A DNA stretch of 61,824 bases, filler included, from Sphacelaria rigidula (lineage: Eukaryota), in NCBI GenBank assembly GCA_964200075.2. It is 6 parts of 6 records of this genome, joined end to end, with 100 filler letters (N's around TTAATTAATTAA, not from the genome) between each part and the next. Parts side by side here need not be neighbours in the genome. Positions count along the whole stretch, not along the records: positions 30,965 to 41,184 come from CAXNAA020006908.1; 5 more parts are not named here. One strand, written 5' to 3'. The notes beneath the pieces are model-generated. The model had not been told where the DNA came from, ran no database searches, and worked only from the letters and a program-made list of their open reading frames with translations. Numbering within the stretch: position 1 is the first letter of the stretch; each line of letters opens with the position of its first letter. This document shows positions 10,223 to 52,461 of this stretch, piece after piece. The translations under genes were made by a program, and so were the position numbers.

Positions 10223-10322
10223 NNNNNNNNNNNNNNNNNNNNNNNNNNNNNNNNNNNNNNNNNNNNTTAATTAATTAANNNNNNNNNNNNNNNNNNNNNN
10301 NNNNNNNNNNNNNNNNNNNNNN
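10223..10322. other. Artificial spacer N44-TTAATTAATTAA-N44; identical spacers at 20544-20643, 30865-30964, 41185-41284, 51505-51604
   Basis: Six-frame-stop linker inside Ns. Segment lengths are 10222, 10221, 10221, 10220, 10220, 10220. Confidence 0.97.
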
Positions 10323-19056: not shown

Positions 19057-20333
19057 CACACGTCGGACAGCTCATGAGATATTTAACAGCTCATCTGCGG
19101 GTTGTAGCTCACTTGTAGTCGAGCATGTACATACGAGCTACGTCCGATAGCTCGCCCAAGATAAACGTGCGCTGATGAGCTACGGGTTGGTAGCTCATCC
19201 TGGACAAACGTATGTAGCTCGTGTGGCTGTCACAGCTCACCCACCGCGAATATGAGCTAATGAGCTACCAACCCGTAGCTTACCCACGACAAACGTGAGT
19301 AGCTCATGTAGCTCTCATAGCTCACGCGGGGAAAACATGCGCGAGTGTGCCACGTCCGGTAGCTTACCCAGGGAAAACATGTGTAGCTCACGCAGGTCTT
19401 TTAGCCCACCCGGGGAGAACATGAGTCGATGAGCGACGCTCGGTAGCTCACCCCAGGAACACATGCTCGTCGCTCACTCACGTCACGTGCCTAAAATAGC
19501 TCGCCACTCTCGAACGGATGGTGTAACACATCATTAGGTTGTAATGCTCTGCCTCGCTCTTCGCGGCGGGAAGAAAATAAGTCAACACAAATCCTCGTTT
19601 GCATGGTCGGGTGGTTCAGAATTATATTGATGTTCGGTGTCTTTTTCAATCGACTATTTCATTTATTTTGACCGCTTGGCCGGCCGTAAGGTACAAGATC
19701 ATATGGTCTACATACTTTTTTCAAGTAAAACTGAAGCCGATTCAACAGATGACCTGTGCTCGCGGTCAAACGGTTGAGCCTTTGACCGCGACGCGTATCA
19801 ACGTGCACGAGCATTGGAACAGAAACATGCAACTCCAAAATCGGCGTAGCTCCTTCAGCTCTCAAGTTCAACCAGGGCAAACATGAGTAGCTCAACCAGA
19901 TAAATATGCGTAGCTCATGTAGCTCTCATAGCTCACCCAGGGCAAACACGCGCGATGAGCTAGGTCCGGTAGCTCATCAAGGACAATTTTGCGCCGCTCA
20001 CCCAGCTATCACAGCTCATCGAGGGCAAACATGTGTAGCTCATGTAGCTCTTGTAACACCCAGGGCGAATATGAGCTGATGAGCTACGGGTTGGTGATTC
20101 ACTTAGAGCAAACATGCGTAGCTCATGCAGCTCTCATGGCTCACTCACCGCGAATATGAACTGATGAGCTACGGGTCGGTAGCTCACCTAGGACAAACAT
20201 GCTTAGCTCATATTACTCTCATAGCTCACCGAGGGAAAACATACGTAGCTCGTGTAGCTCTCATAGCTCACAAGAGAGCTACGCTAAGAACGAGCTAGCT
20301 CGAGCTACAGGGGGCTGATCTGTCCGACGTGTG
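19057..20333. mobile_element. Complete non-autonomous TIR element with AGCTCA subrepeats and an apparent 8-bp TSD (hAT/P-like)
   Basis: TIRs CACACGTCGGACAG / CTGTCCGACGTGTG. Flanks gaaagttt / gaaagctt (7/8 match). Unrelated insert at ~19500-19860. Confidence 0.8.
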
Positions 20334-20643
20334 GAAAGCTTTCTGAGGTTGCACACTGCAGCCCAGATGTTCGTCATCGAGAGGCTCCTAAAGTGGAGAA
20401 CCTGAAAAATAAAGTGCATCCCTGCTGTAAAACCGCTCGTATCACATGTCTCAGTTCCGGTACATATCCCCCTCACCGCCGAGTGATGATACGGTAGGGG
20501 TACAGAAATAATTTCTGAGGTTAGAATTTTTAGGAGCTCCTTANNNNNNNNNNNNNNNNNNNNNNNNNNNNNNNNNNNNNNNNNNNNTTAATTAATTAAN
20601 NNNNNNNNNNNNNNNNNNNNNNNNNNNNNNNNNNNNNNNNNNN

Positions 20644-28500: not shown

Positions 28501-30213
28501 CCTTCGGCCCAGCGCCTTGGGCAATTGAAGGCTGTGCTCGGGGAGTACGACTGTTCAATCGGGCATATTAGTGATTAGCGTGACTGCTGGGGGCTTCACT
28601 ACCCCGGTGCGGGAATGTTCTAGCGGTATCTGTTTCGAGCCATTGCAATTTTTGCGACTCCAGGGCTTGATGGAGCTCTACCATCGAAGGACATCATTTG
28701 TGAAGCCCAAGGGTAAGCCCATGCCGGACTGGTGGTCCTGGTTGATGGAGCCGGGTTGTTCACTGGAGCTGTTGGGCGTGCTTCAAAAGACAGTGGGGGT
28801 TTGTTTCACGTGCATGTCGCAGGAAAAGATGTGCTGTGGATCCCGCCGCAAGCGAGCTGCAATCACGCTTGATGGTATGTGCTCACATGAGAGAAGGTTG
28901 TGACCACTTCACAGCGATTGCAGGAGTATTGCTATGAATTCTGGATGGAGACCCATGTGACCGGGTTTAAGAAGCAGCACTCACACTGTTTGGATTCCAA
29001 GGTGGGAGAGAAGGTCCCGCGTTTCCCCGGGGAGACAGTGCATGGTACTCGCCCAGGGGAAGTGATGGATTTCGATTTTCTCTACGTTGGCCATCGTGGT
29101 TCTCCATGAGATGGCGGATCGGACGAAGGAGGTAGGTTCACCTATATTTCGGTGATGAGCGACCTGAGTAACTTCGCGTGGTGGGAGCCCGCGGAGTCAC
29201 ACACGGCGGCGACGACGACGGTGAAGCATCAGTTGACATGGTGCAAAACACTAGGGCTGCCGGAGGTATGGGTCAGCGATATTGCATAGCATTTTAAGAA
29301 TCGTGTGATGAGAGCACTCGAGAAGATACCAAAGTTGAGTCGACGATTCGCGGTTGCCAACTCGCCGTGATCTAATGGTACCTGTGCGCGAGTGATGCGT
29401 GTGATATTTCGTACCCGGAAGGTCGTTGTGCCGGACGAAATGCGCGATCTTAGTGAATGGGTGGTATTGATGCCTGCCGTGCAGTGCAGTGGGCACTATA
29501 CACTGCTTTCCGAGAGCGCTATGCCAGCATGCCATACCTTGTGATGTTTGGCCAGGCACCGCACACGGGCTTTTCCACCTTGGCATCGTCAACCGGTGGT
29601 GACTGGAAAGTCGATGTGCTTGACGGAAACGCTTTGCGGCAGAAGGTGATGTCATCTCAAGTTGCACAAGAAGGTGGCGCAGCGTGTCGGGAAGAATCGC
29701 AGTTTCAGAGACGTATGGCTAGTAGGGGGCAGCTTCCAAACTTCTTGGTTGGCGATTGCCTACTCGAGGTAAAGGTGCGGCGTTCGGGGACGTTGCCGAA
29801 GTCTGTGAGCTCGTGGACGGGTCCTTGGCGGATCATGACGGCGGGAAAACGGCACGTATACGAAGTCCAGAGCATTGTGACGGGCGAGGTACACGACGTG
29901 CATGTCGCCCACCTTCGATTTCATGCAGAAAAGGAACTGGAGATTACTGCTGATCTGAAGAAGGTGCTCGAGCATGCTGTTGCACTCGAAGAGTTCGAGA
30001 TGGCGGCTATTTTCGGGAAATCAGAGGAATATGCAGGAGACGGTTTCTATGCGTGAGCGAAGTGAGTCGGGTTTGATCAGAGTGAGAACTCGTGGTAGTC
30101 GTGAGAAACTGTGTCGGAAGGGGCCCCGCAGTTTGTAAAGTTGAAGCTGCGTAAGTTGGGATAAGTTAAACGGTGCGAGCAAGTCTGCAGGCAGAGCATG
30201 GTATCAAGCTTTG
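25600..30213 (+). mobile_element. Decayed Ty3/Gypsy LTR retrotransposon internal region (PR-RT-RH-IN-chromodomain); boundaries approximate, LTRs not seen
   Basis: Motifs in order: protease DSGC...VAVMPG (~26595-26850); RT GIRLVRNYRAVN...LRGYWEMPL...FTIATPEDLFTPTWVPLG (27394-27650); RNase H DASDLDWG (~28212); integrase PGEVMDFDFLYVG, WCKTLGLPEVWVSD, SSWTGPWRI; chromodomain-like K*VGFDQSENSW (~30060). Many stops and frameshifts. Confidence 0.88.
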
Positions 30214-31399
30214 AGTGCTCAGTTCATGACATCGACTGATCACAAAAGCATTGTGCTTGGCGCGTTTACTTTGTGTGTGAGTATGCTATTACCAGCAATC
30301 ACCATCGGCTGAATTACTGACCTCACTGAGTTAGAGTGAGACTCTGTATTCCAGTGTCGACGTTCAGGGTTGTGCCAAGGATCAGTTAATTTTGTGGAAC
30401 ATGACATTGCATGATCGTGTCACTAATAGGCGGGCAAAGGTGGCATGAACGTCACTTCGGTGTCTACTGTTCGTTAGCCCTTTTGGAACCGTTGATGGAA
30501 AATCGACGATTTACATTTGAGTTTTTTCCGGGCAAGAAATGGTTGTTTTTCTACAGCTTTTGAGCAATCGATTCCCCCAAAGAGTGCTTTTCAGACTCGT
30601 GCGAATGGAACGTGAAAGGAAAGAAGGTTCGAAGGTTCTCTATTTTATGAGTATGACGAATTGTTCGACCCGTCGGTGTTTTGTAACCCCGGCTAGAGTG
30701 CACGGCTGACTCTCTGTGAAGCACTTATCACGCCGCACATGCCGTAGATGCTTTGCACCGCATCATAGCAAGCATGCGCCTAAGCTGAATTAACAAAGGC
30801 GAAACCGACGGCACATTTACCTCACTTATGCCCCCGTCTACTGTCTGTATTTGCAGACGGTCACNNNNNNNNNNNNNNNNNNNNNNNNNNNNNNNNNNNN
30901 NNNNNNNNTTAATTAATTAANNNNNNNNNNNNNNNNNNNNNNNNNNNNNNNNNNNNNNNNNNNNTTTAGGCTTGAGCCTCATCTCGAAGTTAAACCTCAA
31001 TTCTCACAATTTGTTGTTCAATGCTGTACACGTAGCCCCCAAGGTCACAGTACCGTGATGCGGTTCCCATGTTTCAGCGGGGCGACGTATGTAGTCGAAA
31101 TTCTTTCCACAACTCGTCTTGCATTTCGCATAATCCGTAGCACGGCCGCAGGTCGTGATGCTTATGGATACGTCGAGCCAGCGATGTGGCGACGGACGAG
31201 GGGAACATGAGGAGTCGCGTCCATATTGATATGGGTGTACCGAGGCCACCGCCAAGGCTGTCTGTATAGTTGTACACGCTCCACTCCACTGTGTTCTCGG
31301 ACACAGCCGCCACTCCCTTGATATCCGTCCCTTGTCTCTTTTCCTCTCCCCATCTCCCTTTCCCGTGGGTGAGTGGGGGGAGGGTGGGGAGGTGCGTAC

Positions 31400-32160
31400 T
31401 AATTTGTCGCTTGTATGCAGCTGCTGTGGTGTCGATACAAAGCACTTGGGACGAGCGTGGACAGGTATTCCTTTCGCTGAACTCGGACATAGCTCATGTG
31501 TGTAAAATGCGCGTTTCTCGTCCGCTACGACGCCATATGCATCCCACGATAGCTTTAACGATGCCTATGGACTGTTTTCGTATATTACAGACGCTGTGGT
31601 GCCGATGCATGGAACATGAGACGATCGCGGACAGGTATTCCATTCGGTGGTGTTGGACATAAGCTACGTCGAAGTCGCCAACTCGCAACGTGGACGAAGC
31701 CCATGTCCAGCTCGAGTCGGGTGGCGGTATTGTTCGGCACTGTATGTAGCAGGCACGTTTCTCATCCGCTACGAGGCCGCTTGCGCTGTGCGATGACTTG
31801 AACGATGGCTGCGGGCTGTGTCAATGTACTGCAGGTGCTGTGGTGTCGATGAATGGTGCATGGGACAAGCGCGGACAGCTGTTCCGCTCGCTAGAGTTGG
31901 ACAGGAGCTACGTGCAAGTCGCGACTTGGAAAAAGCTCATGTCCAACTCCAGTCGTGCGTCGTTTTTGTGGCACCGTGCAGCAGGCGCGTTTCTCCTCCG
32001 CTACGAGGCCGTCTGCACCGTGCGATGGCTCGAACGATGGCTACGGGCTGTGTAAGTGTGTTGCGGGTGTTGTAGTATAGATGTAATGTAGATGGGACGA
32101 ATGCGGGCAGGTAGTCAAATCGTAGCCGGAGTTGAACATAACTATGTCCAAGTCGTGACT
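31400..32160. repeat. Four diverged tandem units (170-244 bp), each with a 44-nt exon-like core
   Basis: Cores at 31421-31464, 31591-31634, 31835-31878, 32067-32110. Confidence 0.75.
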
Positions 32161-33022
32161 TGAAAACAGCCTCACCCTTCACGGAAACCTTGTTTCCGGT
32201 GGGTTTCGTCGCCTATTTCGAACAAAATCATACATGATACGCTTGCGTCGTGCAACTACGCTGTACGTGACCACCTCGTATCGACGCTGTTGAGCAAGTC
32301 GAACACCAGTACCATCAACTAGGGTGGTGCCACTCGACACATCCACCGAACCACAGGTTGCGCGAGGAACACGGCAGTGGTACGAACAGCGCCCTGGCTG
32401 GCACATCTTTTTTTGTCTTACTTTCAACCTCCGTTCCTAGAGACGAGTCTGTATCCTCAAGGGATCAACCTTTTTGTTCCGCTTAGGACATGACCGACAT
32501 TTTGGTACGGCCAGCGGATTGCACTGGCAATAGCACACCGCGTCAACTGTCGTGGACTAATTCCTGCTGATCACGCCTTCACGTCTTCCAAGACGGAAAT
32601 CAGGAGTGCGTGAAAACGAACCCACCGGGATTCGAACCCTCAACCTTTCGCACCAACCAAATGCAGAGGAACTTGTTGCATCCTTCGTACGCGACGGTAG
32701 ACTGTATGGCTAGGATTGCACCTTTCTCCACGGCGACCTGCCCAAAGATGGAGGTAAATACTCCACCAGCAAAGACACCACCATGCCGCTGAAAACATTG
32801 CTGAAGAATATCTGCCTCCACACAACAATCCACAAATACGGGTTAGCTGTCTCCGCTTCCCGCAGCTACCACCCGAACACAGCGGCATATTGCAACCTGG
32901 GGAAAACCAAACTGGTATCTATCGCGACAATTTTTAAAAAATTGACCTGGGCACAAGACACATGGCGAAACGGCACTGTGCCGAATATCAGCCGGGGGCG
33001 TGCGCAGGCGTGCCCTCATAAG

Positions 33023-35830
33023 CTACCTCCCTCGCGGGCAGGATAAACCAACGGAGACACATCGAGACGAAGCAGACACGTCTAATTCTGACTTCACGTC
33101 GGCTACCCCCCCTTCGGACATCACATCATGCCCTGCTGCCACATCAAATAACGGCCCCACTTGCTCCGTCATTCGTAGCCGCTTGGTACTCCTTTCACAG
33201 GTGATGCTGCTATTGTAGCTCCTATTGACAGCATTGCTGCTGTAGCCGCTACTGTCCATGCCGTCGGGACTGCCGGATAGAGCAGTGATCAATTCGGCGC
33301 TAGTTTTTTTCCTCTCGGAACCTCCCGCGGGCGCAGCAGTCGTCTCCAGTTTCACTGTCATGCGTGTCTTTGTCCCACCTAGAGATGCACCATCTGCTGC
33401 CGCCTCGCGCCGTGACTGTCCCGAAGCGTCACGCCACGAGGTCATGAAATTTGCACCCCGTTGCCCAGCACAAACGGCACGGGAGCTGCGACGAGAATGA
33501 GCGTTTGGACCGCTATCATTCGTGTTGGCATCGGCGTCCGATGGCTGGCTGGATCTTGCCTCCCATCCATCGAAGTCGACACCAGTCTCTCCCACGGAAG
33601 ATTCATCATCCAGGCATTCTTTTTCATGGACACGTACTGCTGCATCGGACACCATATCAGGGTCATGTGCAACATGAAGGCAGGTATTCTCGTGCCCCCC
33701 CACCCGGGTGGAACGACGCTGGATGGCGCTTTGATTGCCGGTCATAGAGCCTGCACCGGCACGTGGTGCGCAAAACTCCACCGCCCTGCAATCCGCTGCC
33801 TCGACCGATGCTCGTTTTGAGCGGCCTTTGTTTCCCAATTGCTCGCTTTTATCATCAGCCCTGCCGGGCCTGGCGTGCGTAGAGCAGAGCTTCGCTTGCT
33901 CGCCACTCGCTACACCGAACGATGGTCGCGTGGAGCAGCCCTGTTTGCCGCACCGTATTGGTTTTGAGCCAACCATGCCTGGCCGAACGTGTGTAGCGCA
34001 GAACTCCACCTCCCCGCCATCGGCTGCACCGAACGACGCTCGTGTGGAGCAACTCGCCTCGCCGCACCGCTTCTTCTTCACATTGACCATGTTCGCCGAG
34101 GCGTGTGTGGCGCAGAACTCCGCCTTTCCACCATACGCTGCACCGAACGACACTGGTGTGGAGCAACTCGCCTCGCCGCACCGCTGTTTCACATTGACCA
34201 TGTTCGCCGAGGCGTGTGTGGCGCAGAACTCCGCCTTTCCACCATACGCTGCACCGAACGACGCTGGTGTGGAGCAACTCGCCTCGCCGCACCGCTTTTT
34301 CACATTGACCATGTTCGCCGAGGCGTGTGTGGCGCAGAACTCCGCCTTTCCACCATACGCTGCACTAAACGACGGTCGTTTTGAGCAACTCGCCTCGCCG
34401 CACCGCTTCTTCACATCGACCGCTCCCGCCGGGGTGTGTGTGGCGCAGAACTTCACCTTCTTGCAAGCGGCTGCACCGAACGACGCCCGTTTGGAGCAGC
34501 TGGCCTCACTGCACCGCATGCTCTCTACATTGAGCATGCCAGCTGGGGCGTGTGTGACGCAGAACTCCGCCTTCCCGCCACCGGCTGCACCGAACGACGC
34601 TGGTTTGGAGCAGCCCTTTTCGCCGCACCGCTTGTTTACATTGAGCATGCCAGCTGGGGCGTGTGTGACGCAGAACTCCGCCTTCCCACCATCGGCTGCA
34701 CCGAACGACGCCTGTTTGGAGCAGCCCTTCTCGCCGCACCGTTTGTTGACATCGACCATGCCAGCCGGGGCGTGTGTGACGCAGAACTCCGCCTTTCTGC
34801 CATTGGCTGCACCGAACGACGCTCCTTTGGAGCAGCCCTTCTCGCCGCACCACTTGTTGACATTGACCATGCCAGCCGGGGCGTGTGTGGCGCAGAACTT
34901 CGCTTTTTTGCCAGCGACTGCCCCGAACGACGCCCGTTTGGAGCAGCCCTCTTCACCGCACCGTATATGTTTGACATCCACCATGCCAGCCGGGGCGTGT
35001 GTGACGCAGAACTCCGCCTTTCTGCCATTGGCTGCACCGAACGACGCTCGTTTGGAGCAGCCCTTCTCGCCGCACCGCTTATTTACACTGAGCATGCCAG
35101 CTGGGGCGTGTGTGGCGCAGAACTCCGCCTTCTTGCTAGCGACTGCCCCGAACGACGCCCGTTTGGAGCAGCCCTCTTCACCGCACCGTATGTGTTTGAC
35201 ATCCACCATGCCAGCCGGGGCGTGTGTGGCGCAGAACTCCGCCTTTCTGCCATTGGTTGCACCGAACGACGCTCCTTTGGAGCAGCCCTTCTCGCCGCAC
35301 CGCTTATTTACACTGAGCATGCCAGCTGGGGCGTGTGTGACGCAGAACTCCGCCTTTCGGCCATCGGCTGCACCGAACGATGCTTGTCTGGAGCAGCCCT
35401 TCTCGCCACACCGCTTGTTTCTTACATTAACCATGCCAGCTGGGGCGTGTGTGACGCAGAACTCCGCCTTCCCACCATCGGCTACACCGAACGACGCTCG
35501 TTTGGAGCAGCCCTTCTCGCCGCACCTCTTGTTTCTTACATCGACCGCGCCCACGGGAGCGTGTGTGACGCAGAACTCCGCCTTACTGCCAGCGGCTGCA
35601 CCGAACGAGGCTCGTTTAGAGCAGCCCTCTTCACCGCACGGCTTTTTTTTCACATCGACCGCGCCCGCCGGGGCGTGTGTGGCGCAGAACTCCGCCTTAC
35701 TGCCAGCGGCTGCACCGAACGATGGGCATTTGAAACAGCCCTCCTTACCGCACCGTTTTGTTTTCACATCGACCATGCCTGCCAGGGTGTGTGCGGCGCA
35801 GAGGTTCGGATTGCTGCTACCTGCTAACAC
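33023..35830 (-). CDS. EsV-1-7 cysteine-rich repeat protein (17 complete 37/38-aa C-x4-C...C-x2-H repeats plus low-complexity C-terminus); true start uncertain
   Basis: Uninterrupted 935-codon ORF. Consensus KRCGEKGCSKRASFGAADGGKAEFCVTHAPAGMVDV matches the EsV-1-7 motif known from phaeovirus and brown algal proteins such as IMM. The frame is open upstream to ~35926; first in-frame ATG is at ~35776. Confidence 0.88.
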   Translation of the reverse strand: MLAGSSNPNLCAAHTLAGMVDVKTKRCGKEGCFKCPSFGAAAGSKAEFCATHAPAGAVDVKKKPCGEEGCSKRASFGAAAGSKAEFCVTHAPVGAVDVRNKRCGEKGCSKRASFGVADGGKAEFCVTHAPAGMVNVRNKRCGEKGCSRQASFGAADGRKAEFCVTHAPAGMLSVNKRCGEKGCSKGASFGATNGRKAEFCATHAPAGMVDVKHIRCGEEGCSKRASFGAVASKKAEFCATHAPAGMLSVNKRCGEKGCSKRASFGAANGRKAEFCVTHAPAGMVDVKHIRCGEEGCSKRASFGAVAGKKAKFCATHAPAGMVNVNKWCGEKGCSKGASFGAANGRKAEFCVTHAPAGMVDVNKRCGEKGCSKQASFGAADGGKAEFCVTHAPAGMLNVNKRCGEKGCSKPASFGAAGGGKAEFCVTHAPAGMLNVESMRCSEASCSKRASFGAAACKKVKFCATHTPAGAVDVKKRCGEASCSKRPSFSAAYGGKAEFCATHASANMVNVKKRCGEASCSTPASFGAAYGGKAEFCATHASANMVNVKQRCGEASCSTPVSFGAAYGGKAEFCATHASANMVNVKKKRCGEASCSTRASFGAADGGEVEFCATHVRPGMVGSKPIRCGKQGCSTRPSFGVASGEQAKLCSTHARPGRADDKSEQLGNKGRSKRASVEAADCRAVEFCAPRAGAGSMTGNQSAIQRRSTRVGGHENTCLHVAHDPDMVSDAAVRVHEKECLDDESSVGETGVDFDGWEARSSQPSDADANTNDSGPNAHSRRSSRAVCAGQRGANFMTSWRDASGQSRREAAADGASLGGTKTRMTVKLETTAAPAGGSERKKTSAELITALSGSPDGMDSSGYSSNAVNRSYNSSITCERSTKRLRMTEQVGPLFDVAAGHDVMSEGGVADVKSELDVSASSRCVSVGLSCPRGR

Positions 35831-38294
35831 GTATGATGCCGTCGCATGTGGGTGCGCCCAATGGGAATCCCCTCCACGACTATACTTGAAGAGGTAGCCC
35901 CGCTTTTGCTGCTGCGCTTTGCGCCGTCACGCAGCCGGTCACGACGACCAGCTCACCAATGCAGTCGCACCCTGCACCGATCAAACAGCAGAGACCATTT
36001 GTCGCGTCCGAATCAACGGGAGACAAACCGTTACGTTAGCACCTTAGTCACGAATGTGCCCGAGGATTGGATTCAACTGACGAGTCAACCGTGAGGTCAC
36101 CAGGGAATGTCATCATCTACTGCATCACAGTTGCTACAGGGGAGCAGTGTATTTTCTACACGACTCGTGGCCGATACTAACTTTCGAGCACGACTAGATT
36201 ACTGAACAAAGCGATGGGGGTGGAACTCTAAAGGTGCAGAAATCAATCAGTGCCATGACTGCTCGTATGGTGCCTCTACTCATCACGTTTGCCCAACACA
36301 CGACGCTTTAACGACCACTCCGCCTCGTGAGCCTCCCATCGGCAGTTGGTTAGACAGGACAGGCTGGGCAGTATGGTTCATGTGATCGATATCCGTCAGC
36401 AATGTAGGCAGATGATAACGTGGATGTGGGCAAAATAGGTCGATTCATCTCGTCTGTAGCGTGCTGGTATCCGCTGTTGGAAAATACCAACCCATCCCAT
36501 GCGGGTACGCAAAGGATGCTCCACACTGAGCACGGTGACGGTGGGCACTGGGAGAATAATGGTGCACGCTTCTGATGTCGACATACGGCACGCACCAGGC
36601 GGCATGCTAACACGGAGCTGTGCTCTCATCAGTCGCTCCTGTCGCCCCTGTATCAAAACGCTACAGAGCTTCGGATGACAGGTTTGTGGACATCCATCCC
36701 TCTCGGAGATTGGTGTGTCTTTCTTGCTGCCCATTCGCCTGGAGAGTGGTGACATTGATACGTGTGACGATTTGGCTCGGCGGAATGAGCTAAAGCAATC
36801 AATTGAAGTTCTGGGCTAGCGAGCATTCTGATACAGCGCCTGCATGCGGGAACAAGGACAACAGGATATTCTCATACCTCCACCAAACGGCGCCCTACGG
36901 CACAAGAAACCTGGCATAACGCGAGACAAGGATTGTCGGGAATTAATGCTGACGGTGGACGTGTGGAGCCATCGGGCTATAGGTACTTGAGCAGCTGTGG
37001 CCCATACGTCCATGTTCCGCTCGGTATAGTGAAGACGCTCACGGATTAGTGTACTTGGAATCGGGGCAGCTCCGAGACTCTAGATTTGCCGTGTAGATAA
37101 GCAAAGCACGAAAGAACTGCCCGTGGTTTTGCCGCTGGGGGTAGCATTACTCTGGGGTGGCGCGATTAATTGGAGGGAGGGTTCCGCAAGAACTGTACAT
37201 TATAGAAGCGCAAGCAATCGGCGCCTCCGCTATCGGGGAAATAGCTGACAAGGCACTCAGGACTACGCGATTTCCTTGGTGATTGGTGCATCACGACGTG
37301 TTGATATAGCACAGGTTCCTACACAGAAATGAACTAAGTACGATTTCGCGATTGTTGAGACTGCCGTAGCATGAGACGGAGAGGTGCGCTCAAGGAGGAG
37401 CTACGTTGTATCCAAAGGAAGACAACGCAGCAATCACCAAGTCGAATCACAGATGGGAAATGATGTTTGAAGCCGCCATGACGGACACGCACGGGTGAGA
37501 TAGAAACGGTAGGAAACACACATATAGACATCTAAAAACAGCTACAGTAGTTTAGACACCTTTTACGATAGTCCCCCCCCCCAGAAAAAAAAACGAGCCC
37601 AAATCTGTCACAAATAGAATGGTCATACAGCGCCTCATGTTTGGTTTCAGGCTGCATGAAGCGCCTCATATGAGCGACATTGGCGGAAACGTACCCAAGC
37701 GTGGGAATTCCCAGCTGCTCGTTGTACCCGGCTTTTTTCTTTTCGATTCACGTGTAGACTTTGCCTACCCAAACCAGCCCCCTTTTTTTGGTGGGGTGCT
37801 ATCGTAAAAAGTATCGTACTCCTGACACAGGGGGGATTGTAATTTCCTTGTAGTCGGGGATGTTCCAAACTGTTTTTGACTGCCACCTCTCAATCCGATG
37901 AAGGTTTGATTCCAAAGCTTGGGGATCGGGAAATATTAGGCACTCCCTCCACACTCCGAAATAAGATCACATCTCTGCAAATTATTGGACGACTTACGGG
38001 TTAAACGGTTTTCGGGGCCCCGGGAACTACCGAGCCCCGGGTGATGACCGTTGAGTATTGTTGCTCGATAGAAGCAATTCAATCGTTTGCGTGATCTAGT
38101 GAACATGATTGTTTTCCCCCATTTTACCTGTTTATTAAGCTAAAGCCGAAAGACTGTGTTTTTCGAAGCAGTTACGGTCGACAACACCCTGTGATGAATA
38201 CGGTACTTACTCCGTATCACCACGACAACGCGAACTGTGGATTGTGATTTGAGCACGACCTGCTTCTGCTCCCAATATCTATCGACTCTACTGG

Positions 38295-39800
38295 CTGGGT
38301 CAGCCTAGAAGTGGATTCAACCCTTCGGGAACCCTCCCTCCCGTCCCCGGTCCAGACGCCTCGTTATTCCAAGCGCTGACCAAGAAGAAACGATGGCAAA
38401 AGGAAATACTGACAAATTCCATTTGAAGGGCGGAAGGCCACAGAAGAATCCACCGACATACGTCATGCTCGCACCGAAAAACGTCGCCCCGGTGCGGTCG
38501 GGAAGGTTCTCTCCAATGAGCGTACACCACGGGTCAAGCATGCTCAACTTTGTGCACACAATAAAAACCAGCACCGCGGCCTCTGAATTTCACACAACAA
38601 AAATCAGCACCACCTGTATATTTCCTATTTATGTAGTACCTTGTGGTACTGCTGCACATATTTTTACAGGTGATGCACCCCACCGGGGTATTGGTGTGCT
38701 GCAGTCCGGAGGTCGTACCCGCCCAACACTTGGCAAGCGGGCTAAGGCGCCATCACACAAAAAAGTAGTAAAGTGGGGGGCTCTCGGTAGTGCTGGTTGA
38801 ATAGTGCCAACGTCCTTTATCATGCCCGTAAAATTTCCGGACACAGCCAGAGCTCGCAGTAGTGCCGCCTGGCACTACTAACATATGACTCTCAATTGTG
38901 CCGGTGTGGACGGTTTTGTACCCTCAACAGTGCCGGTTTTGGACACACTCACGCACGCCTGCACGCCTGCCTCGATGTATTTTTTTTCGAGGTCGCTTGT
39001 TTCTCCCTCTCCTCGTCTCGGTAGCCGGTAGGAAGTGAAAAGGGGTGCGGTTGATTCTTTCTCGCTCCTTCCTTCTGGAGGGCGGTGTACTCTTTCGTGA
39101 GTTGTTTTCCACGCCAGATGCCGCACCTTCATAGTTGCGTTGGGTGCAGATGCGTCCTTGTTTTTTTTTGTCGGGAAGGCCGTTTGGCATGAGCAACTTT
39201 TGTGGCCGTACTACTGCTGTTGTGCTGGTAGGGAAGAAAATGATCAACTTATGAACAGGATTAATCAAGTTAAATGTGAAGAACAAAAAAACATCGGGTT
39301 TAGTCCTGCTACCCCGAACCCTTACCAGACGTATCCTATCGAGATCCCTTGAAACAGAGGTCCTTGTCCGTTTTGTGCTTACGTTGGTCCCACAAAGGAT
39401 AAGCGTAGCACTTTACGAACGGAAGGTCGTCAGTGGTGCCAGAACCGGCACTACTGAGGTATTCAGAGCCCTCAACTGCACATGTTTTGGCACTTTTCAG
39501 AGTCGTGTCGGGCTCTCTGAGTAGTGTCGGTGTCCGTGGTGGGCACATACCGGCACTACTGAGAGCGCCCCACTGTATGGCCGAGCACACAGAAATCCCC
39601 TCACCACACGTGGTGGAAGGATTGAGGTGCAATACAGTATTTGCGCGATTCACCGCTAGTTTGAAGCGGTCACGGGTCTCAGAAACATGGCTTGGGCAAA
39701 ATAGCGGTCCTTAGAAGCTGCGCACAAACAACCGTATGTTGTTTGAAAAACAGCACCTCGAAATCAGCACTTTTTATTGCCAACAACTAAAGGGTTGAGC
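38295..39800. repeat. Dispersed repeat with an inverted copy at ~48150-48800, interrupted by an 805-bp insertion
   Basis: 'accagcaccgcggcctctgaatttcacacaacaaaaatcagcaccacctgtata' and 'gattcaccgctagtttgaagcggtcacgggtctcaga' occur as reverse complements in 48150-48800. Confidence 0.85.
38771..39575. mobile_element. Non-autonomous Tc1/mariner-type element with TA TSD
   Basis: TIRs (a/c)agtggggggctctcggtagtgctggt / accggcactactgagagcgccccactg. TA at 38769-70 and 39576-77. Empty site in the paralog near 48345. Confidence 0.85.
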
Positions 39801-40741
39801 ACTCCAAGCAATATCTCATCGACACAGACGAGTTGGGCCGTGATCTGCATGTCGTAAAAGCCGTCTAATCAACGAAAAGGTGCTCATTTGCTAAAAAATT
39901 CTGGGCCAAAAATTTCTCATTGATCAAACCCCATGTCTAGTCATTCCTATACCGTACGGAGATAGCGTCCATATCAAAATCTCCATGAACCCCGAACAAC
40001 ACATTCAGCGGATTACGACGATTTTGGTTTTGACATTTCCTGAAGCACAGGGAGACGATAGCCTCACCTGGTTCGTCATCTATCTCGGGATATGGCGCAC
40101 ATAAGGCTCCATACTAAAATCAATATACTATGAGCAGAGGCACTAGATACTCTGAGTCTGGATATCGCGTCTCAATCTTTAAGAGTTGGACTGTGAAATT
40201 TCGAATGGAGAACCGCTATTACGGTGGCGTATAGTTGATAGAAGTAAATGTATAGCGAAACAAATTTGCACACAAGTGGGGTCCCCCAACAAACGCCTGT
40301 TTTGTAGCGCTACCTAAAGCTTCAAGCCCGCTGTAGACACTATTATATTTATATCACCGCAACACATACGTAACTTGGATACATCACATAAACTTGAAGA
40401 GTGTAGGTTTCGTCAGGTGCCGGTCGCATATGCAGGAAGCAAACACAAGTTGCGGTAGCGCACGTCGAAAACGAGCACCACGTTTTCACGGGGGAATACT
40501 TTTTTCGAACCCATCTTCTAGCATCAAATAGTAGAACCAGTTCAAGTACACAGCTATGGGCCAGGCGGTTCGAACGATTTATTCAGATTTCGAATCAGCG
40601 TCCGCAATCTCGAGATATGGATATTTGACGACGGGCACCTCAGGTCAACGAGCACTTGATTCGGCCCTGGGGTAACATGGATGTTTAGGCATATCTCATG
40701 ACGAAAATATATTTTTCCCGTCTTGTTTTCTGCTGCGTGAC

Positions 40742-41085
40742 ACCCCTATCCATACAGTTCTGTTCAGCCATCGTTTTTTCTATTCCAGTCAAAATTGACG
40801 ATTTAAAAGGAAATATTCGTTCAGAAGTCTACCCCGAGCCAGCCGAAGGGCAACGTCCAAAATCATAGATATTAAGGCATAGCGTACTACGAAATCATAT
40901 TTTTTTCTCTTTTGCTTTCTTCCGCGTGATACCCTCATCCATACGGTTGTCTCAAGCGACCGATTGTTAAATTCCAATCAAAATCGACCGGTCTACAGTG
41001 CAATATTCATTCTTAAGTTCACCCCGAGCCAGGCCAAGGGTGACGTCCAAAATCATCGATTTTACGGCATAGCTCATTACGCAAA
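40742..41085. repeat. Diverged tandem duplication, ~190-bp unit
   Basis: 'accccgagccag.c.aaggg..acgtccaaaatcat' at ~40830 and ~41021. Confidence 0.7.
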
Positions 41086-43856
41086 AATCCCCCCCCCCCC
41101 CCCCACCCCCCCCTCCCTTCCCTTCCTCTCTCTCTCTCTCTGTCTTTCCCTCGCACTATGTTACGCGAAGCTCGTCGGTGTGAGNNNNNNNNNNNNNNNN
41201 NNNNNNNNNNNNNNNNNNNNNNNNNNNNTTAATTAATTAANNNNNNNNNNNNNNNNNNNNNNNNNNNNNNNNNNNNNNNNNNNNACATCAGATGTACACC
41301 ACCTAATGCGCACTCTGCACCTGAAAATAGACTGGATGAAACTTTCAGTCTTCGTCATAACCCTGCAGTTACATACGCGAATTTTCAGTAACATGCCACT
41401 GTTTCGTTTAGAAGCCAGACACGTCATTCCCGATCAGCCTCTTGATCACCCGGTCCCAAAAGGGTTAAGCCAAGGGGGTGATAGTGTCGGTTCCCAATTA
41501 CCGCAATGTACTACTACTGTCGTTGTACGTACACTGCGAGCGTGACTTGAGTCTGCGAGTCAATCACAATCAGCTTCCTTTTATTGTTCACTACAAAAGT
41601 CTCCTTTTATTATTGGCGCTGGATTCAGCCGAATCCTCACTGAAGAGCCTCTGAATGGTTGGATTTCGATACGTAATTCAAAGGATATATGACGTGGACC
41701 TATCTCGTGCAGGTTTTCTTGCCCGCCTCATGTTTTCGATCGAATTATCATTTTCATCATCAAGACACGAGTTGACATTGCGGCCCATCACAGTGTTATT
41801 CCTTTTCAATATTAGGCGCCCCAACACAGTACACCAGGCGTCTGATGATACTGAAACTTGACGTATGTGTGGACTGAAGCCGCAGGTAGTTGTTGGCGCA
41901 GCAGTTTCGGTGAACCAGGGCGTTTTGTATGCTGCGTGGCTTGAAGGGATGATTATGCACGATGCTGCAGTGATTCCGGAAACAAGAACACTTTCTGATG
42001 ACAGTTCTAGAGGGTAACGGTATGAAATCCGGGCGGAGACAGGAGTAGGAGTAGATCTTGCCATCCTTGTTGTTTACATTGCCCCCCTGTTGGTCGACGC
42101 TGGCACCAAGGCCGGAAAAAACCGCTAGTTTAGGTATTCAATATATTAGAGGCAGATACCCCTGAGTTTTATACGCCGTGCCGAGCAAGACGCGGCCCAA
42201 CAATGCAGCCAAGGAGATGAGCGTCTTCTGTCAAGGGCCACTGCGGACCTGCTTGGGCAGGGGGCAACATCTCCTCCCTCACAGTGCCAGGCCTAGCTTG
42301 GACGTTACCACGACGGTCTGAAAATGACAGGGGCAGTTGCTGTAGTTTTCTTCTATCAGAATCAATCAGATATTCTTCCGTAGTGTGCTCCCACGTGAAG
42401 ATATTCACCTTTCTCTGGCAGCCGCGTGATCACCCTTGTGCGGAGTTTTCACTTGGTTCCATAGGAGAACAGAGCGCGAGTTGCAATTTGTTTTTTTTGC
42501 ACGAATGGATCGCGGGTATTCTAGCCCTGTCGAGCCGCGGCTCGCATCGTACAGCCAGTTCTACAGTACTCGTTGTACTGGCACTGGGAACACACAGTGT
42601 CAACTTACAACTGCGTGAATACATACCGTGCAATAAATGCTTTCTGCATTCGAAGTGATAGGCATCATTTCCCATCCGGCTGTCAAACGCGCGAAAGCTG
42701 GTCTGTAGCGCCAGGTATCCGTGCTGGTGTGGAGCCCTCTCTTCCAAGGACGTCCGCCCATATTTTAGGTCTTAGAGTATGACAGTCTTCAATTGACACC
42801 GCGGATGATGAATTATAATTTCAGTACAATTCCTCCATAACGTTGAAAAGGAATAACGCTGATCAGTTCGTACGATCTTTTTCCCACCGTACCTTTTCGA
42901 TCGGACACTACTGCGAAGACGAGAGCCTTCAGGAGATCTTTGCGAAAAATTGAGACTGTGAGATATCAATGAGGGTATGTCGACAAATACAGCACATTTC
43001 GTGATCAGTACAACAGTATGATAAGGTTTGTTCGTTCGTCACTTTCAGGCCAGGTGGACGGTGCAGCAAGTCCTCAAACATCAGAACTCCAAGAGCGATG
43101 AAAAGGGTCTGAGCAGCAATAACGGCGACGGTCCTTGTCTACGCGATATGCTGCTCACATGCTCGTATGATCGTGCAAAGGAATACAAGCTCCTGCGAAC
43201 TACTGGCTGTGGAAGATCATCGGTCGTTCATCCACTGACGCACAAAACGCGCCCAAAGCACCTTCATTAAGCTTTTGATGTAATATGTTGCGGTTCACGT
43301 GCACACGCACGTCAAGTTGAACGTCGGCGTCACACATCCGTCAAGTTGGTTCTCGTAATACACCAGACAAAAGTTCCGCACACTCGATTGTCGCGAAAAA
43401 ATGAGGCTAGGTAGTGAGAGTCTGCTGACCGAAATAGCTCCCGACGTGGGCACTACAAAGCCGTCTACGGGTATTTTCGAATCCACGCGAATGTTGTACA
43501 AATGGTACAGGAAGTCCCCAAACGTTAGGAATCCAAGGGCGAGAGAAAAGATCTGTGCAGCAGCAGTGGCAGGGACAAGAGTGAATCGGCCCCACATTCT
43601 GTGGCACACAGAGGTCAAGAAAAAAAAGGCAATACTGCACGTTGTTAGCTCCCGTCGCATGCACCATCCTCCCCATTTTCAACCTCGAACAAAAATGGGG
43701 GAAACTGGGCCGGTACGCTTGAGTACCCTTCCCTCTCCCACCGAGCAGTCTGAGGAATAACCCGGTCAGCCATTGGCGCAGTGAAACAAGATGAAGAATT
43801 GTCGAGCGCATGCGTATCCCGACTGCTATACATTGACTATGGAACAATGCGCTCAC

Positions 43857-46042: not shown

Positions 46043-46107
<65 letters not shown>

Positions 46108-46148
46108 CGTCGTCGTCGTCGTCGTCGTTGGTGATGTTGCCGTTGTTG

Positions 46149-46203
<55 letters not shown>

Positions 46204-46211
46204 AGGTGTCA

Positions 46212-46262
<51 letters not shown>

Positions 46263-46305
46263 CGTCGTCGTCGTTGTCGTTGTTGCTGTTGCTGTTGTTG
46301 CTGTC
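46043..46305. repeat. Compound trinucleotide microsatellite (GTT/GTC/GCT)
   Basis: Direct reading. Confidence 0.95.
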
Positions 46306-50345: not shown

Positions 50346-52461
50346 ACCTGCCTCACCCTCTATATCGAATTCAAAACTGCCATCTGGTAGTGCGAAGCGT
50401 TTCAGATCTGGGTGCAAGTTGAGCAGTCGAAGTTTTAATATGCCCGAGGGTGGAAGTCGCCCCCCACCTGAACACAATGCACCCGGGACCGAGGGAAAGA
50501 ACGAGAGCCAGCGCGAATGACAGCTGACGCGACATCTCTGCGCCCATATGCTATTGGAGCGATCCGAGTAGCATCTCACTTGGCTAAGTTTTGTTTTTGT
50601 TCTCTACGTGCAATACGTGGTACTCTTCTTACTTACTGCCGTCTGACATTTGCATGATTTTTCCTTCTTTTTATACTTTCCGCCCTGATCACAGCTGGGT
50701 TTGTTGTAATCAGCTGACAGGGTTAGATACCGAATCCATAGATCGATCATGGGTACCCCGCGATGATTTTCGTGGCTGTTGTCGCGGGTGCAGAGACGAA
50801 AAATATCGCTCGAAAATAGTGTAGTAGTATGTGCCAAGTTGAAATTGAATTATTCGATTTTCATTTCGAGGGGGTAGGGCCGTAATTCCTGGCACCAACG
50901 TATTGCAGTAGCACGTGAGAGCACAGGTGCAGTAGTACCCAAGAGTAGGGTTTGCCCCTCTATGTGTAGCTGTATTTTTTCATTCAGAGCACCCGGCAAT
51001 TTCGCAGTATTGACGGTATAGTAACATGGAAGGTTATTCAATTGGTATTTTGGCACTTTGTTGTGTATATTGTACGCCTGCTGCAACCCCTCGTTTTTTT
51101 TGTTCTTCCTCATTTTCGTTTTTTTCCTGCTTGTTTGCTTGCACGTGGATGATTGTTGGGTATGATGCTCATCTTCGACATGGAACAATGTATACCTTCA
51201 GATGATTATCTAATATTTATACCCAAACATCAAAAACATCAGATGACATATGAGTGATTTACTGTATTCGAATTAATCCGAACACGAAAATCAGGGGGAA
51301 TCTGGGTATTAATTACTTGTGAAAACAAGACGTGCCCGCTCCGACAGCTTCTGGCCTCAACGTGAATTGGCCCCAGCTGTTGCATCGTGGGGAGTGTATC
51401 GCGTTTGGTAAATACCGGGGGTAGGGTATTTACCGGGGTATCCCATAAAACAGCCGATTTTATATTTTGGGGTTCATGCAAAATATGGGGCTGAAGTGGC
51501 ATATNNNNNNNNNNNNNNNNNNNNNNNNNNNNNNNNNNNNNNNNNNNNTTAATTAATTAANNNNNNNNNNNNNNNNNNNNNNNNNNNNNNNNNNNNNNNN
51601 NNNNGCTGATAGCTCCGTTAGGAATCAGTCTATGCTGGGTAGTAAAACGAGTGACCAGCCTGGGGCGATACTGCAAGACCAGACTGGAATATAACGTGAC
51701 TAACGTACGGCTGAAATACGACCTATTGCCCATATCGCGCACATCGAGAACGCCTTCTATTTAAGCGACTAATATCCGCCGTCACAGTGTAACAACAAAT
51801 GGTTGGTGGCACCACGAAACCACGAGAAGAACGTACGATCTCTATTGAACGTAGGGTGACTATTTTGAAGCCCGCATTCATTAACCTTCATTCACATATA
51901 TTGTCTTTTGGATCCGCGGGCATCTACCACGTCCTCTGTAGATGTTATTATTGCCTGACATTCCGCCAAAACATGGTCCTCATCACTCAATCGATGCCGT
52001 CCGAAATGCGCTACAAGGTCCCGTTTCATACCCCACGTCACTTCCAGCCTCGACTTTTACACCCCCCCCCCCCGTCCCTCCCTGGCTTCACTCGCAGCCC
52101 TTAACGTCGCCAACACCTCAGATGGGATATTCTCCCCTTTGCCGATGAGTGCGGTGCACGTCGCAACAATAGATATGGGCTCCCAGTTGGATTCCTTTTC
52201 CCACTTCCGCTTAGAGCGCCCCCTGCTCACACCACTAGTCCCACAGGACACGTAGCTCTCCGCGAACACGATTTTCCCGTACTTGTCAAGGCTCATGGAT
52301 GCGGCACGGCAAAGAATGGCATCCCGGCACGACCGTAGCCAATGCAGATCCACCCCACTCTCTCCGTCGTCGCTAACACGCTTCGCCAAAACCTTTCCAA
52401 TGAGTAAAGGTGCCCCCGTGTCGATGAAGAAGGCAAACCAATCTTCCTCCACAGTAGAGTT

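What the first reader, a model, noticed from the sequence alone, without database searches (positions are those of the whole stretch)
33760..35790. EsV-1-7 zinc-finger-like array with position-specific variable residues: candidate TALE/PPR-like programmable binder
Seen: 17 contiguous 111/114-bp repeats in one reading frame, with a near-invariant scaffold (C-x4-C, SFG, FC-x-TH). The residue pair at +2/+3 after the second Cys reads KC, KR, KR, RQ, KG, KR, KR, KR, KG, KQ, KP, KR, KR, TP, TP, TR, TR. The +3 codon switches non-synonymously among CGA/CGG/GGA/CCA/CAG/CAA/TGC. A second variable patch follows SFG (AAAGS, VADGG, AADGR, ATNGR, AVASK, AANGR, AAGGG, AAYGG and others). Established: EsV-1-7 repeats occur in the phaeovirus EsV-1 and are expanded in brown algae (e.g. 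IMMEDIATE UPRIGHT); I know of no defined ligand or code. Inference: a basic CCCH array with fixed variable positions could read nucleic acid one module at a time, for example against viruses or transposons, or as a fast-evolving regulator.
Basis: partly seen in the sequence, partly recalled or inferred. Interest (0 to 1): 0.8.

Follow-up and report, generated by a model that had tools for sequence, protein, structure and literature searches.

The report
Seventeen-unit EsV-1-7 zinc-finger array gene
This is an unusually long, recently expanded member of the known brown-alga/giant-virus EsV-1-7 cysteine-rich repeat family, which probably binds DNA, but this gene shows no demonstrable one-repeat-one-base code.

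Summary
On the minus strand, 33839-35752 encodes 17 complete C-x4-C-x16-C-x2-H units of 37/38 aa. Pfam EsV_1_7_cys scores E 7.5e-204 with 18 stretches. The +2/+3 residue pairs and codons read exactly as reported.

The gene looks like a host gene. It has one coding exon (ATG 35776 to stop 33023, 917 aa) and a basic array (pI 9.3, net +50). Contigs of RNA-like runs cover it. The tail has no homologue.

In this array variation is not focused. Of 102 nonsynonymous changes, 100 are spread Poisson-like over the 29 non-scaffold columns. Omega is 0.47 overall and 0.08 on the scaffold. The +3 column ranks top but is not significant (P 0.09). The model is a beta-rich zinc knuckle, not a TALE or PPR fold.

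At least 541 giant-virus loci fuse EsV-1-7 arrays to a Vsr/EDxHD-like nuclease fold. In 56 such arrays only the +3 and +5 columns change faster than synonymous sites (1.51 and 1.63).

Verdict: a new member of a known family. DNA binding is plausible. A modular code remains an open, testable idea.

The parts
33839..35752 (-). 17 complete tandem EsV-1-7 units (C-x4-C-x16-C-x2-H plus a linker ending in MV(D/N)V-basic), each 37 or 38 aa
   Evidence: Regex hits and unit table; Pfam PF19114 E 7.5e-204; TRF period 111, score 2028
33761..33838 (-). Degenerate 18th unit (residues 697-722 of P0001). It has lost the first Cys pair and the His.
   Evidence: Pfam counts 18 stretches; translation
35777..35800 (-). 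Relic of the tail of an older unit ('CAAHTLAG') just upstream of the likely start codon, probably untranslated
   Evidence: Translation; in-frame TGA at 35927-35929 read
35774..35776 (-). Likely start codon (M51 of the open frame). It is the first in-frame ATG after the TGA at 35927-35929. The predicted protein is 917 aa.
   Evidence: Sequence; translation; colinear contigs 35659/35683-35973 in X1-X3 leave no room for an intron there. This is inference.
35972..35973 (-). Candidate AG splice acceptor. The exon would start at 35971, with a 5' leader exon further upstream that was not located.
   Evidence: Contigs of 3 of 3 RNA-like runs leave the genome sequence at 35973 with 75-85 unmatched letters. 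The DNA-like run X5 continues to 37645 (table 8). The minus strand reads ...tgcag|gg.
33026..33760 (-). C-terminal tail of 245 aa, low-complexity, with an acidic patch (net -8 at residues 757-786). It has no detectable homologue.
   Evidence: The region search 697-967 returned only the window's own protein (1 of 1 hit); charge profile; no Pfam hit there
33023..33025 (-). Stop codon
32241..33022 (-). Probable 3' untranslated region
   Evidence: Contigs of X1-X3 run colinear over 32241/32402-33492 (table 8). The library type of these runs is only guessed to be RNA.

Best explanation
[quoted passage not shown] It encodes 17 tandem CCCH zinc-knuckle modules, flanked by decayed units, and then a tail with no homologue.

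Shown: the array grew by recent tandem duplication of blocks of one to three units. The four metal ligands and the hydrophobic or turn scaffold are under strong purifying selection. Exposed positions drift at about the neutral rate.

Inferred: each module binds one Zn. The modules pack through the conserved G-M-V-(D/N)-V linker into an extended basic rod (net +50). That rod binds nucleic acid, most likely DNA, so the protein acts as a lineage-specific, fast-evolving nuclear regulator.

Inferred: column 9 (+3 after the second Cys) is the least constrained surface position, as it is across the family, and may tune what is bound. This array gives no evidence that each module reads one base.
For: Family membership:
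- Pfam PF19114 scores E 7.5e-204 with 18 stretches, and 17 of 17 units carry the motif.
- 69 homologues carry PF19114. Those named are brown algae (Sphacelaria, Ectocarpus, Scytosiphon, Pylaiella) except three named hits (Elliptochloris, Mesvir1, and EsV-1-7 of Ectocarpus siliculosus). The best identity is only 40-49%.

Selection:
- Pooled omega is 0.47 and scaffold omega is 0.08.
- On a tree of the units there are 66 synonymous and 102 nonsynonymous changes. Only 2 of the 102 fall in the 9 scaffold columns.

Recent duplication:
- Units 5, 7 and 9 are 95-96% identical in DNA, and units 14 and 15 are 97% identical.
- TRF finds higher-order periods of 225 and 336.

Host gene that is probably expressed:
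- RNA-like runs X1-X3 cover 32241-35973. They give zero depth over 36762-37443, 31306-31646 and 40172-40853, where DNA-like X5 has depth 68 to 1707.
- In 3 of 3 of those runs the contigs break at a cag| acceptor.
- There is no dense ORF packing around the gene.

Fold:
- The AlphaFold2 model of units 3-6 has pLDDT 90. It shows only short strands, and column 9 is in a beta bridge in 3 of 3 units that have a preceding unit.

Charge: array pI 9.34, net +50.

DNA binding, by association:
- 47 of 70 stored proteins carry a C-terminal PD...E.DE.QH...NPD domain after the array. So do at least 541 tblastn-confirmed loci in viral contigs, many of them giant-virus MAGs.
- A model of P0012 (pLDDT 86.6) matches Vsr (Z 8.7, rmsd 3.2, 110 aligned) and the EDxHD homing endonuclease I-Bth0305I (Z 8.6, rmsd 2.9, 93 aligned). 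In that family the N-terminal region carries the DNA-binding motifs (PMC3239194, passages).
- An Ectocarpus Tc1/mariner transposase has an N-terminal EsV-1-7 domain (PMC12477816, passage).
Against: - There is no direct evidence of zinc or nucleic-acid binding for any EsV-1-7 protein in the papers I could read.
- The nuclease fusions are in relatives that share at most about 40% identity with this array. The window protein lacks that domain.
- The nuclease assignment rests on fold similarity of middling Z. Pfam gives only 3 of 47 weak Hjc hits, and there is no PDB sequence match.
- The four-unit model has no significant fold match in the PDB. Its pTM is 0.52, so the rod geometry is uncertain.
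- The RNA label of runs X1-X3 is a guess, and all three come from one study.
- The start codon and leader exon are inferred.
- No orthologue or genome was available, so selection could be measured only between paralogous units, which may exchange sequence.
Confidence: 0.6

Rival explanations
1. Modular code reader. Each EsV-1-7 unit contacts one or a few bases, specificity is set by the residue at column 9 together with neighbouring surface positions, and the 17-unit array reads a long DNA or RNA word, as C2H2 arrays, TALEs or PPRs do.
For: - Column 9 has the highest within-array entropy in 36 homologous arrays (1.88 bits) and in 10 host-type arrays (2.09).
- In 56 unique giant-virus nuclease-fused arrays (229 nearest-neighbour unit pairs), pN divided by global pS is 1.51 at column 9 and 1.63 at column 11. 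Every other column is at or below 0.95.
- A cluster bootstrap gives CIs of 1.07-2.78 and 1.30-2.43. Taking one array per cluster gives 1.38 and 1.50, against 0.94 for the next column.
- Their residues are mostly R/Q/I/T at column 9 and T/N/V/S at column 11, with almost no acidic residues.
- In the window array column 9 is the top column by the same measure (1.96).
- The closest homologue, P0003, shows the same pattern: T, I, Q, R, C, Q, G, Q, V, V, G at column 9 in otherwise similar units.
Against: - In the window array the excess at column 9 is not significant: P 0.09 uncorrected, and 6 nonsynonymous against 4.8 expected on the tree.
- Changes are Poisson-spread over the non-scaffold columns.
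- Column 11 is an invariant Ser here.
- Between related viral arrays, columns 9 and 11 are no better conserved (0.34 and 0.32) than within arrays (0.27 and 0.29). That fits fast turnover as well as it fits a code.
- 100 distinct column 9/11 pairs occur among 429 units, so there is no small alphabet like the TALE RVDs.
- Only 10 clusters of related arrays underlie the bootstrap, and one holds 37 of the 56 arrays.
- No target sequence is known, and no model with DNA could be made.
Confidence: 0.15
2. Protein-binding scaffold. The zinc knuckles form a rigid rod that recruits proteins or other ligands, as LIM, PHD, A20 or RanBP2-type fingers do. The fast positions reflect co-evolution with a protein partner, for example a viral or host factor.
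For: - The weak fold rows for the four-unit model are mostly protein- or sugar-binding cysteine-rich modules: PZP/PHD fingers, hevein lectins and the nsp13 zinc-binding domain, all with E of about 1 or more.
- IMM is described only as a protein of unknown function (PMC7457493, passage).
- An omega above 1 at two positions is equally expected in a protein-protein arms race.
Against: - Repeated fusion to a nuclease fold and to a transposase puts the array where DNA-binding modules sit in I-Bth0305I.
- The net charge of +50 favours a polyanion ligand.
- None of the fold rows is significant.
Confidence: 0.2
3. Decaying or non-functional young tandem expansion. The array is a by-product of unequal crossing-over with no selected function, or it belongs to an integrated phaeovirus rather than to the host.
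For: - Both ends of the array are degenerate.
- Omega in the youngest unit pairs is close to neutral: 21 nonsynonymous to 7 synonymous differences in six young pairs, read.
- The tail has no homologue.
- High-copy repeats flank the gene.
Against: - The frame is open for 967 codons through a repeat that would easily acquire stops.
- Scaffold omega is 0.08, and 0 of 102 nonsynonymous changes hit the four ligand columns.
- RNA-like contigs cover the gene and show a spliced leader.
- The surrounding 61 kb has only short ORFs and no virus-like gene density.
Confidence: 0.05

Closest known systems
EsV-1-7 domain family (Pfam PF19114), including Ectocarpus IMMEDIATE UPRIGHT (IMM) and the phaeovirus EsV-1 gene EsV-1-7
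   Same: It has the same C-x4-C-x16-C-x2-H motif in tandem. Its named relatives are mostly brown algae. [quoted passage not shown]
   Different: - It has 17 complete units (18 by Pfam), against at most 11 strict units in the 68 homologues and 12 in the 80 viral loci examined.
- IMM is described with five repeats and a unique N-terminal domain. This protein appears to start directly at the array.
- Its units are unusually alike (mean column identity 78%), so the array is young.
- No other EsV-1-7 gene lies in this window.
Giant-virus EsV-1-7 array fused to a Vsr/EDxHD-like nuclease (P0012 and relatives; loci L001-L080)
   Same: The repeat family and unit length are the same, and the G-M-V-D-V linker is conserved. 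Column 9 is hypervariable in both.
   Different: - The viral proteins have 7-12 units, a CxxC..CxxC knuckle and a C-terminal domain of about 150 aa with invariant PD, E.DE..H and R.NPD. That domain has a Vsr-like fold.
- The window protein has instead a tail with no homologue.
- Column 11 is hypervariable in the viruses but is a fixed Ser here.
C2H2 zinc-finger arrays (for example KRAB-ZFPs); this comparison is from recall
   Same: It works like them in outline: tandem one-zinc modules expanded by unit duplication, a conserved scaffold, and a few fast-evolving surface positions.
   Different: - The ligand set and spacing differ (CCCH, x4/x16/x2).
- The model shows no beta-beta-alpha helix.
- There is no zf-C2H2 Pfam hit.
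- No base-contact positions are established.
TALE repeats (and PPR repeats); this comparison is from recall
   Same: The unit length is similar (37/38 aa against 33-35) and there is a candidate pair of variable positions.
   Different: - TALE and PPR units are helical hairpins without metal. Here the units are zinc knuckles with short strands only.
- TALE repeats are nearly identical in DNA outside the RVD codons. Here pS between units is 0.33, and variation is spread over 29 columns.
EDxHD homing endonuclease I-Bth0305I (PDB 3R3P) and the Ectocarpus TcMar-2_Ec32 transposase with an EsV-1-7 N-terminus
   Same: Both are architectures in which a DNA-cleaving domain is joined to a separate targeting module. 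This is the basis for inferring DNA binding.
   Different: I-Bth0305I uses NUMOD/helix-turn-helix motifs, not zinc repeats. The window protein has no catalytic domain at all.

Membership tests
EsV-1-7 cysteine-rich repeat family (PF19114) | Repeated C-x4-C-x16-C-x2-H motif | tested here: met
   17 of 17 units match the exact spacing. The motif wording is recalled from Macaisne et al. 2017, which is not held.
EsV-1-7 cysteine-rich repeat family (PF19114) | Score above the Pfam gathering threshold (25 bits) | tested here: met
   659.6 bits, E 7.5e-204, 18 stretches
EsV-1-7 cysteine-rich repeat family (PF19114) | Zinc coordination by the four ligands | not testable with these tools
   There are 0 nonsynonymous changes at C1, C6, C23 and H26. 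The model was made without metal.
IMMEDIATE UPRIGHT (IMM) orthologue | A unique N-terminal domain followed by five EsV-1-7 repeats (bioRxiv 10.1101/2024.02.19.579948) | tested here: inconclusive
   There are 17 units. Only 50 codons are open upstream and they are closed by TGA at 35927-35929. The IMM sequence itself was not fetched, so no direct comparison was made.
TALE repeat array | Helical units of 33-35 aa, near-identical in DNA, with variation confined to two adjacent residues (recalled) | tested here: not met
   The model has no helix. pS is 0.33 between units. Nonsynonymous changes are spread over 29 columns.
PPR repeat array | 35-aa helix-turn-helix units (recalled) | tested here: not met
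   The model has only short strands. There is no PPR Pfam hit.
C2H2 zinc finger | C-x2-4-C-x12-H-x3-5-H with a beta-beta-alpha fold (recalled) | tested here: not met
   The ligand pattern differs. There is no zf-C2H2 hit at E up to 1.
Vsr/EDxHD-like nuclease fusion (the viral relatives) | C-terminal domain with PD...E.DE..H...NPD and a Vsr-like fold | tested here: not met
   The motif is absent from P0001. The tail 697-967 has no homologue. The domain is present in 47 of the 70 stored proteins.

The most novel reading that the evidence does not exclude
EsV-1-7 arrays are a so far unrecognised modular DNA-recognition system. In giant viruses they aim a Vsr/EDxHD-type endonuclease. Specificity would be written mainly at two alternating, outward-facing positions that flank the conserved Pro (columns 9 and 11), which are under diversifying selection. 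Brown algae would have domesticated nuclease-free arrays such as this 17-unit one as rapidly retargetable regulators or genome-defence factors. If so, the array in this window reads a long DNA word unit by unit.
Probability: 0.15. Interest if true: 0.85.

Novelty: new member of a known kind. Interest (0 to 1): 0.55.

Why it matters
EsV-1-7 proteins form one of the largest gene-family expansions of brown algae: 2018 proteins in 31 genomes, and the largest orthogroup in a 2026 atlas. The family includes the developmental regulator IMM. Even so, the papers I could read still describe the domain's function as unknown.

This locus is a clean natural example: a long, young, open and apparently expressed array in which scaffold and surface positions separate clearly.

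Following it to relatives produced two concrete leads. First, arrays are fused to a Vsr-like nuclease fold in hundreds of giant-virus loci. Second, two positions evolve faster than synonymous sites. Together these turn the question of what the domain binds into a bench experiment.

If a readable code existed, it would be a new class of programmable DNA binder. If not, this gene is one more ordinary member of a known family.

Tried and rejected
- Whole genome: none is held for this window, so paralogues and orthologues could not be collected.
- RNA evidence: no listed holder is on record as RNA. X1-X4 are only guessed to be RNA.
- Contig joints inside the array (33952>35117 and 34628>35664, with 21-23 letters on the shorter side) were not interpreted. 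They may be assembly collapse of the repeat.
- Fold of four units: Foldseek against the PDB gave 0 matches at E of 0.001 or better among 45 listed. VIA-align against 48,161 chains gave 0 with Z of 2 or more.
- PDB by sequence: 0 hits for P0001 and for P0012. The A3 profile gave one chance row at E 1.1.
- PHROGs on 8 homologues gave only weak hits to families of unknown function, mostly inside the repeats.
- Extra Pfam hits in homologues (CoV_NSP13_ZBD, Zf_WRKY19, SBP) lie on the repeats and are at or below threshold. I took them as cysteine-pattern cross-hits.
- Ten other long ORFs of the window gave 0 Pfam families in 9 of 10, and one sub-threshold RecC_C hit. The gene context therefore stays unknown.
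- The tail search found only the window's own protein.
- Cluster look-up of 10 homologues gave no organism names.
- Earlier findings of this scan: nothing by place, words or sequence.
- Macaisne et al. 2017 is not held. Supplements were not opened (Denoeud Table S17, and Table S3 of the 2026 preprint). They may list comparable long arrays or this very gene family in this species.
- The plus-strand 720-codon ORF over the array was rejected as an antisense artefact of the repeat.
Full report
**1. Observation**

The feature is real and lies on the minus strand. Tandem Repeats Finder reports a 111-bp period with 16.1 copies and score 2028 at 33988-35802, plus higher-order periods of 225 and 336 bp. 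The minus-strand frame is open for 967 codons, from 35926 to 33023.

Seventeen of 17 units match C-x4-C-x16-C-x2-H exactly. No other such motif occurs in the six frames of the 61.8-kb window apart from low-complexity Cys runs. Units are 37 or 38 aa long. Pfam EsV_1_7_cys scores 659.6 bits (E 7.5e-204) with 18 stretches. The 18th is a degenerate unit at 33761-33838, and a relic reading 'CAAH' lies upstream of the first unit.

**2. Gene model**

An in-frame TGA at 35927-35929 closes the frame 50 codons upstream of the first in-frame ATG, which is at 35776. I laid contigs from three runs guessed to be RNA (X1-X3, one study) on the region.
- They cover 32241-35973.
- They give no depth over 36762-37443, 31306-31646 and 40172-40853, where a DNA-like run (X5) has depth 68 to 1707.
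- In 3 of 3 of these runs a contig leaves the genome sequence at 35973, with 75-85 unmatched letters. The minus strand there reads tgcag|gg. X5 runs on to 37645.

I therefore read one coding exon (35776 to 33023, 917 aa), preceded by a spliced leader that I could not locate. This is inference, because the library type is only a guess.

The window shows only short ORFs elsewhere, and nine of ten tested have no Pfam family. This looks like ordinary eukaryotic host DNA and not an integrated virus.

**3. Relatives**

69 proteins of similar length carry PF19114. One of them is the window's own. The nearest share only 40-49% identity over part of the array. The named ones are brown algae except three named hits: Elliptochloris, Mesvir1 and EsV-1-7 of Ectocarpus siliculosus. 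The C-terminal 271 residues have no homologue.

The literature I could read describes the family in these terms:
- It is hugely expanded in brown algae: 2018 proteins in 31 genomes, often as tandem gene arrays.
- It is possibly a new class of zinc finger.
- It has no known function, although it includes IMM.

The founding paper (Macaisne et al. 2017) is not held, and supplements were not opened.

With 17 units this is the longest array among those I examined. The maximum is 11 strict units in 68 homologues and 12 in 80 viral loci.

**4. Variation inside this array**

Entropy per column is highest at columns 16 (2.37), 18 (2.06), 36 (2.01), 9 (1.89), 4 (1.78) and 33 (1.66). So the +3 column is one of several variable columns.

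| Column set | pN/pS ratio (Nei-Gojobori, all unit pairs) |
|---|---|
| All columns (JC-corrected dN/dS; pN/pS 0.54) | 0.47 |
| Nine scaffold columns | 0.08 |
| Columns 8-9 | 0.81 |
| Columns 16 and 18 | 1.22 |

On a tree of the units there are 66 synonymous and 102 nonsynonymous changes, and no column exceeds the neutral expectation. The 100 nonsynonymous changes outside the scaffold are spread over 29 columns as a Poisson process would spread them (index of dispersion 0.92, chi-square p 0.58).

Among 11 nearest-neighbour unit pairs, column 9 has the highest ratio to global pS (1.96), but the binomial P is 0.09 before any correction.

The K/T difference at +2 is inherited as a block in units 14-17. 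Units 5, 7 and 9, units 13-15, and units 3, 10 and 11 are recent duplicates at 93-97% DNA identity.

The power of 17 short units is low.

**5. Structure**

An AlphaFold2 model of units 3-6, made with an alignment of 70 rows, has mean pLDDT 90 and pTM 0.52. It contains only short strands or bridges, at columns 12-13, 22 and 32-33. The residue before the first Cys and column 9 also form bridges, in 3 of 3 units that have a predecessor.

Neither Foldseek nor VIA-align finds a significant PDB match. The fold is clearly not a helical TALE or PPR unit.

Conserved Pro10 and Phe12 alternate with columns 9, 11 and 13. I infer that columns 9 and 11 point to the solvent side. This is inference from strand alternation only, not from coordinates.

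The array has pI 9.34 and net charge +50. The tail is near neutral with an acidic patch.

**6. What relatives say about function**

47 of the 70 stored proteins carry two further elements after 7-11 units: a CxxC..CxxC knuckle, and a domain of about 150 aa with invariant PD, E.DE..H and R.NPD. Pfam does not cover this domain; 3 of 47 proteins give weak Hjc hits.

A scan of viral contigs found 598 pattern matches. Of these, 541 were confirmed by tblastn and 80 were kept, many from giant-virus MAGs.

[quoted passage not shown] Many other PD-(D/E)xK nucleases follow at Z 5-6. Foldseek E-values are weak, 0.036 and above. In I-Bth0305I the N-terminal region carries modular DNA-binding motifs (PMC3239194, passages).

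Separately, an Ectocarpus Tc1/mariner transposase is reported to have gained an N-terminal EsV-1-7 domain (PMC12477816, passage).

These architectures put EsV-1-7 arrays where DNA-targeting modules normally sit. This is my main reason to favour DNA binding. A search for 'EsV-1-7' together with 'endonuclease' found only that transposon paper, so I did not find the nuclease fusion in print within the held library.

**7. Hypervariable positions in the viral arrays**

In 61 of the 80 loci with at least five strict units (462 units), within-array entropy peaks at columns 11 (1.73) and 9 (1.67). The next column is at 1.28.

In 56 unique arrays, 229 nearest-neighbour unit pairs (mean DNA identity 0.89) give pS 0.215 and pN 0.090. 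The ratio of column pN to global pS is 1.51 at column 9 and 1.63 at column 11. No other column exceeds 0.95.

Resampling the 10 clusters of related arrays gives CIs of 1.07-2.78 and 1.30-2.43. One array per cluster gives 1.38 and 1.50, against 0.94 for the best other column.

There are caveats:
- One cluster holds 37 of the 56 arrays.
- The counting method is approximate.
- Units may exchange sequence.

In 17 independent pairs of related arrays, columns 9 and 11 are about as different between matching units (identity 0.34 and 0.32) as within an array (0.27 and 0.29). Most other columns are more alike within an array than between arrays. This fits homogenised units with two positions kept diverse, but it also fits simple rapid turnover.

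100 different column 9/11 pairs occur among 429 units, so there is no small alphabet. Column 9 is also the top column in 10 host-type arrays without the nuclease, though several other columns are close behind.

**8. Reading**

Most likely (0.6), this is a functional, young, lineage-specific EsV-1-7 gene. Its zinc modules form a basic rod that binds nucleic acid, probably DNA, with scaffold positions conserved and surface positions drifting.

A unit-by-unit code (0.15) is not excluded. It gains some support from the viral arrays, but this locus does not show it. A protein-binding scaffold (0.2) and a decaying expansion or viral insert (0.05) are the alternatives.

**9. Novelty**

The locus is a new member of a known family. 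The value lies in the leads it opened: the nuclease fusion and two positions with omega above 1. These make the family's unknown function directly testable.

Noticed in passing
L001-L080 (for example L001:2226-3764); proteins P0004-P0069: EsV-1-7 arrays of 7-12 units are fused to a CxxC..CxxC knuckle and a C-terminal domain of about 150 aa (invariant PD, E.DE..H, R.NPD). This occurs in 47 of 70 stored proteins and in at least 541 confirmed loci of viral contigs, many of them giant-virus MAGs. The domain has no Pfam family. Its model matches Vsr (Z 8.7) and the EDxHD homing endonuclease I-Bth0305I (Z 8.6).
   Followed up: yes
L001-L080, repeat columns 9 and 11: In 56 unique viral arrays, only the two positions that flank the conserved Pro (+3 and +5 after the second Cys) change faster than synonymous sites (1.51 and 1.63). 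Their residues are mostly R/Q/I/T and T/N/V/S.
   Followed up: yes
L064, L066, L069; L018, L029: Several different array-nuclease genes carry the same giant-virus MAG name, so the family seems to be multi-copy within single viral genomes.
   Followed up: no
window 10223-10322, 20544-20643, 30865-30964, 41185-41284, 51505-51604 (also 1442-1451): Paired runs of 44 N separated by 12 bases recur every 10,320 bases or so. The pieces between them are 10,220 bases long, which equals the 'longest contig' recorded for the window's own protein. This looks technical rather than biological.
   Followed up: partly
window 37444-37784, 39490-40171, 30965-31305: These segments have very high depth (about 1e5 to 3e5) in DNA-like run X5, against a baseline of about 68. 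They are high-copy repeats or transposons flanking the gene. Many variant joints occur at 38739-38746 > 39575-39586.
   Followed up: no
window 33952>35117 and 34628>35664: Contigs in several runs join distant units of the array, skipping 1164 or 1035 bases with only 21-23 letters on the shorter side. This is either assembly collapse or copy-number variants of the array.
   Followed up: no
window 1524-1838, 19275-19465, 20025-20271: Related tandem repeats of 84-89 bp and 42 bp, built on 'TAGCTCACC...' units, recur at three places in the window. They look like a dispersed satellite or MITE-like family.
   Followed up: no
window 52463-53050: A 123-bp tandem repeat (4.8 copies, 86% matches) lies inside overlapping ORFs of 216-279 codons. 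The 279-aa frame has no Pfam family.
   Followed up: partly
window 57623-57670 and 46044-46304: There is an interstitial telomere-like run, (TTAGGG)8 with variants, and a long (TTG)86 microsatellite.
   Followed up: no
window 29457-30053 (+): A 199-aa open frame gives a sub-threshold hit to RecC_C (E 1.8e-4, 21.8 bits against a cut-off of 22.6).
   Followed up: no
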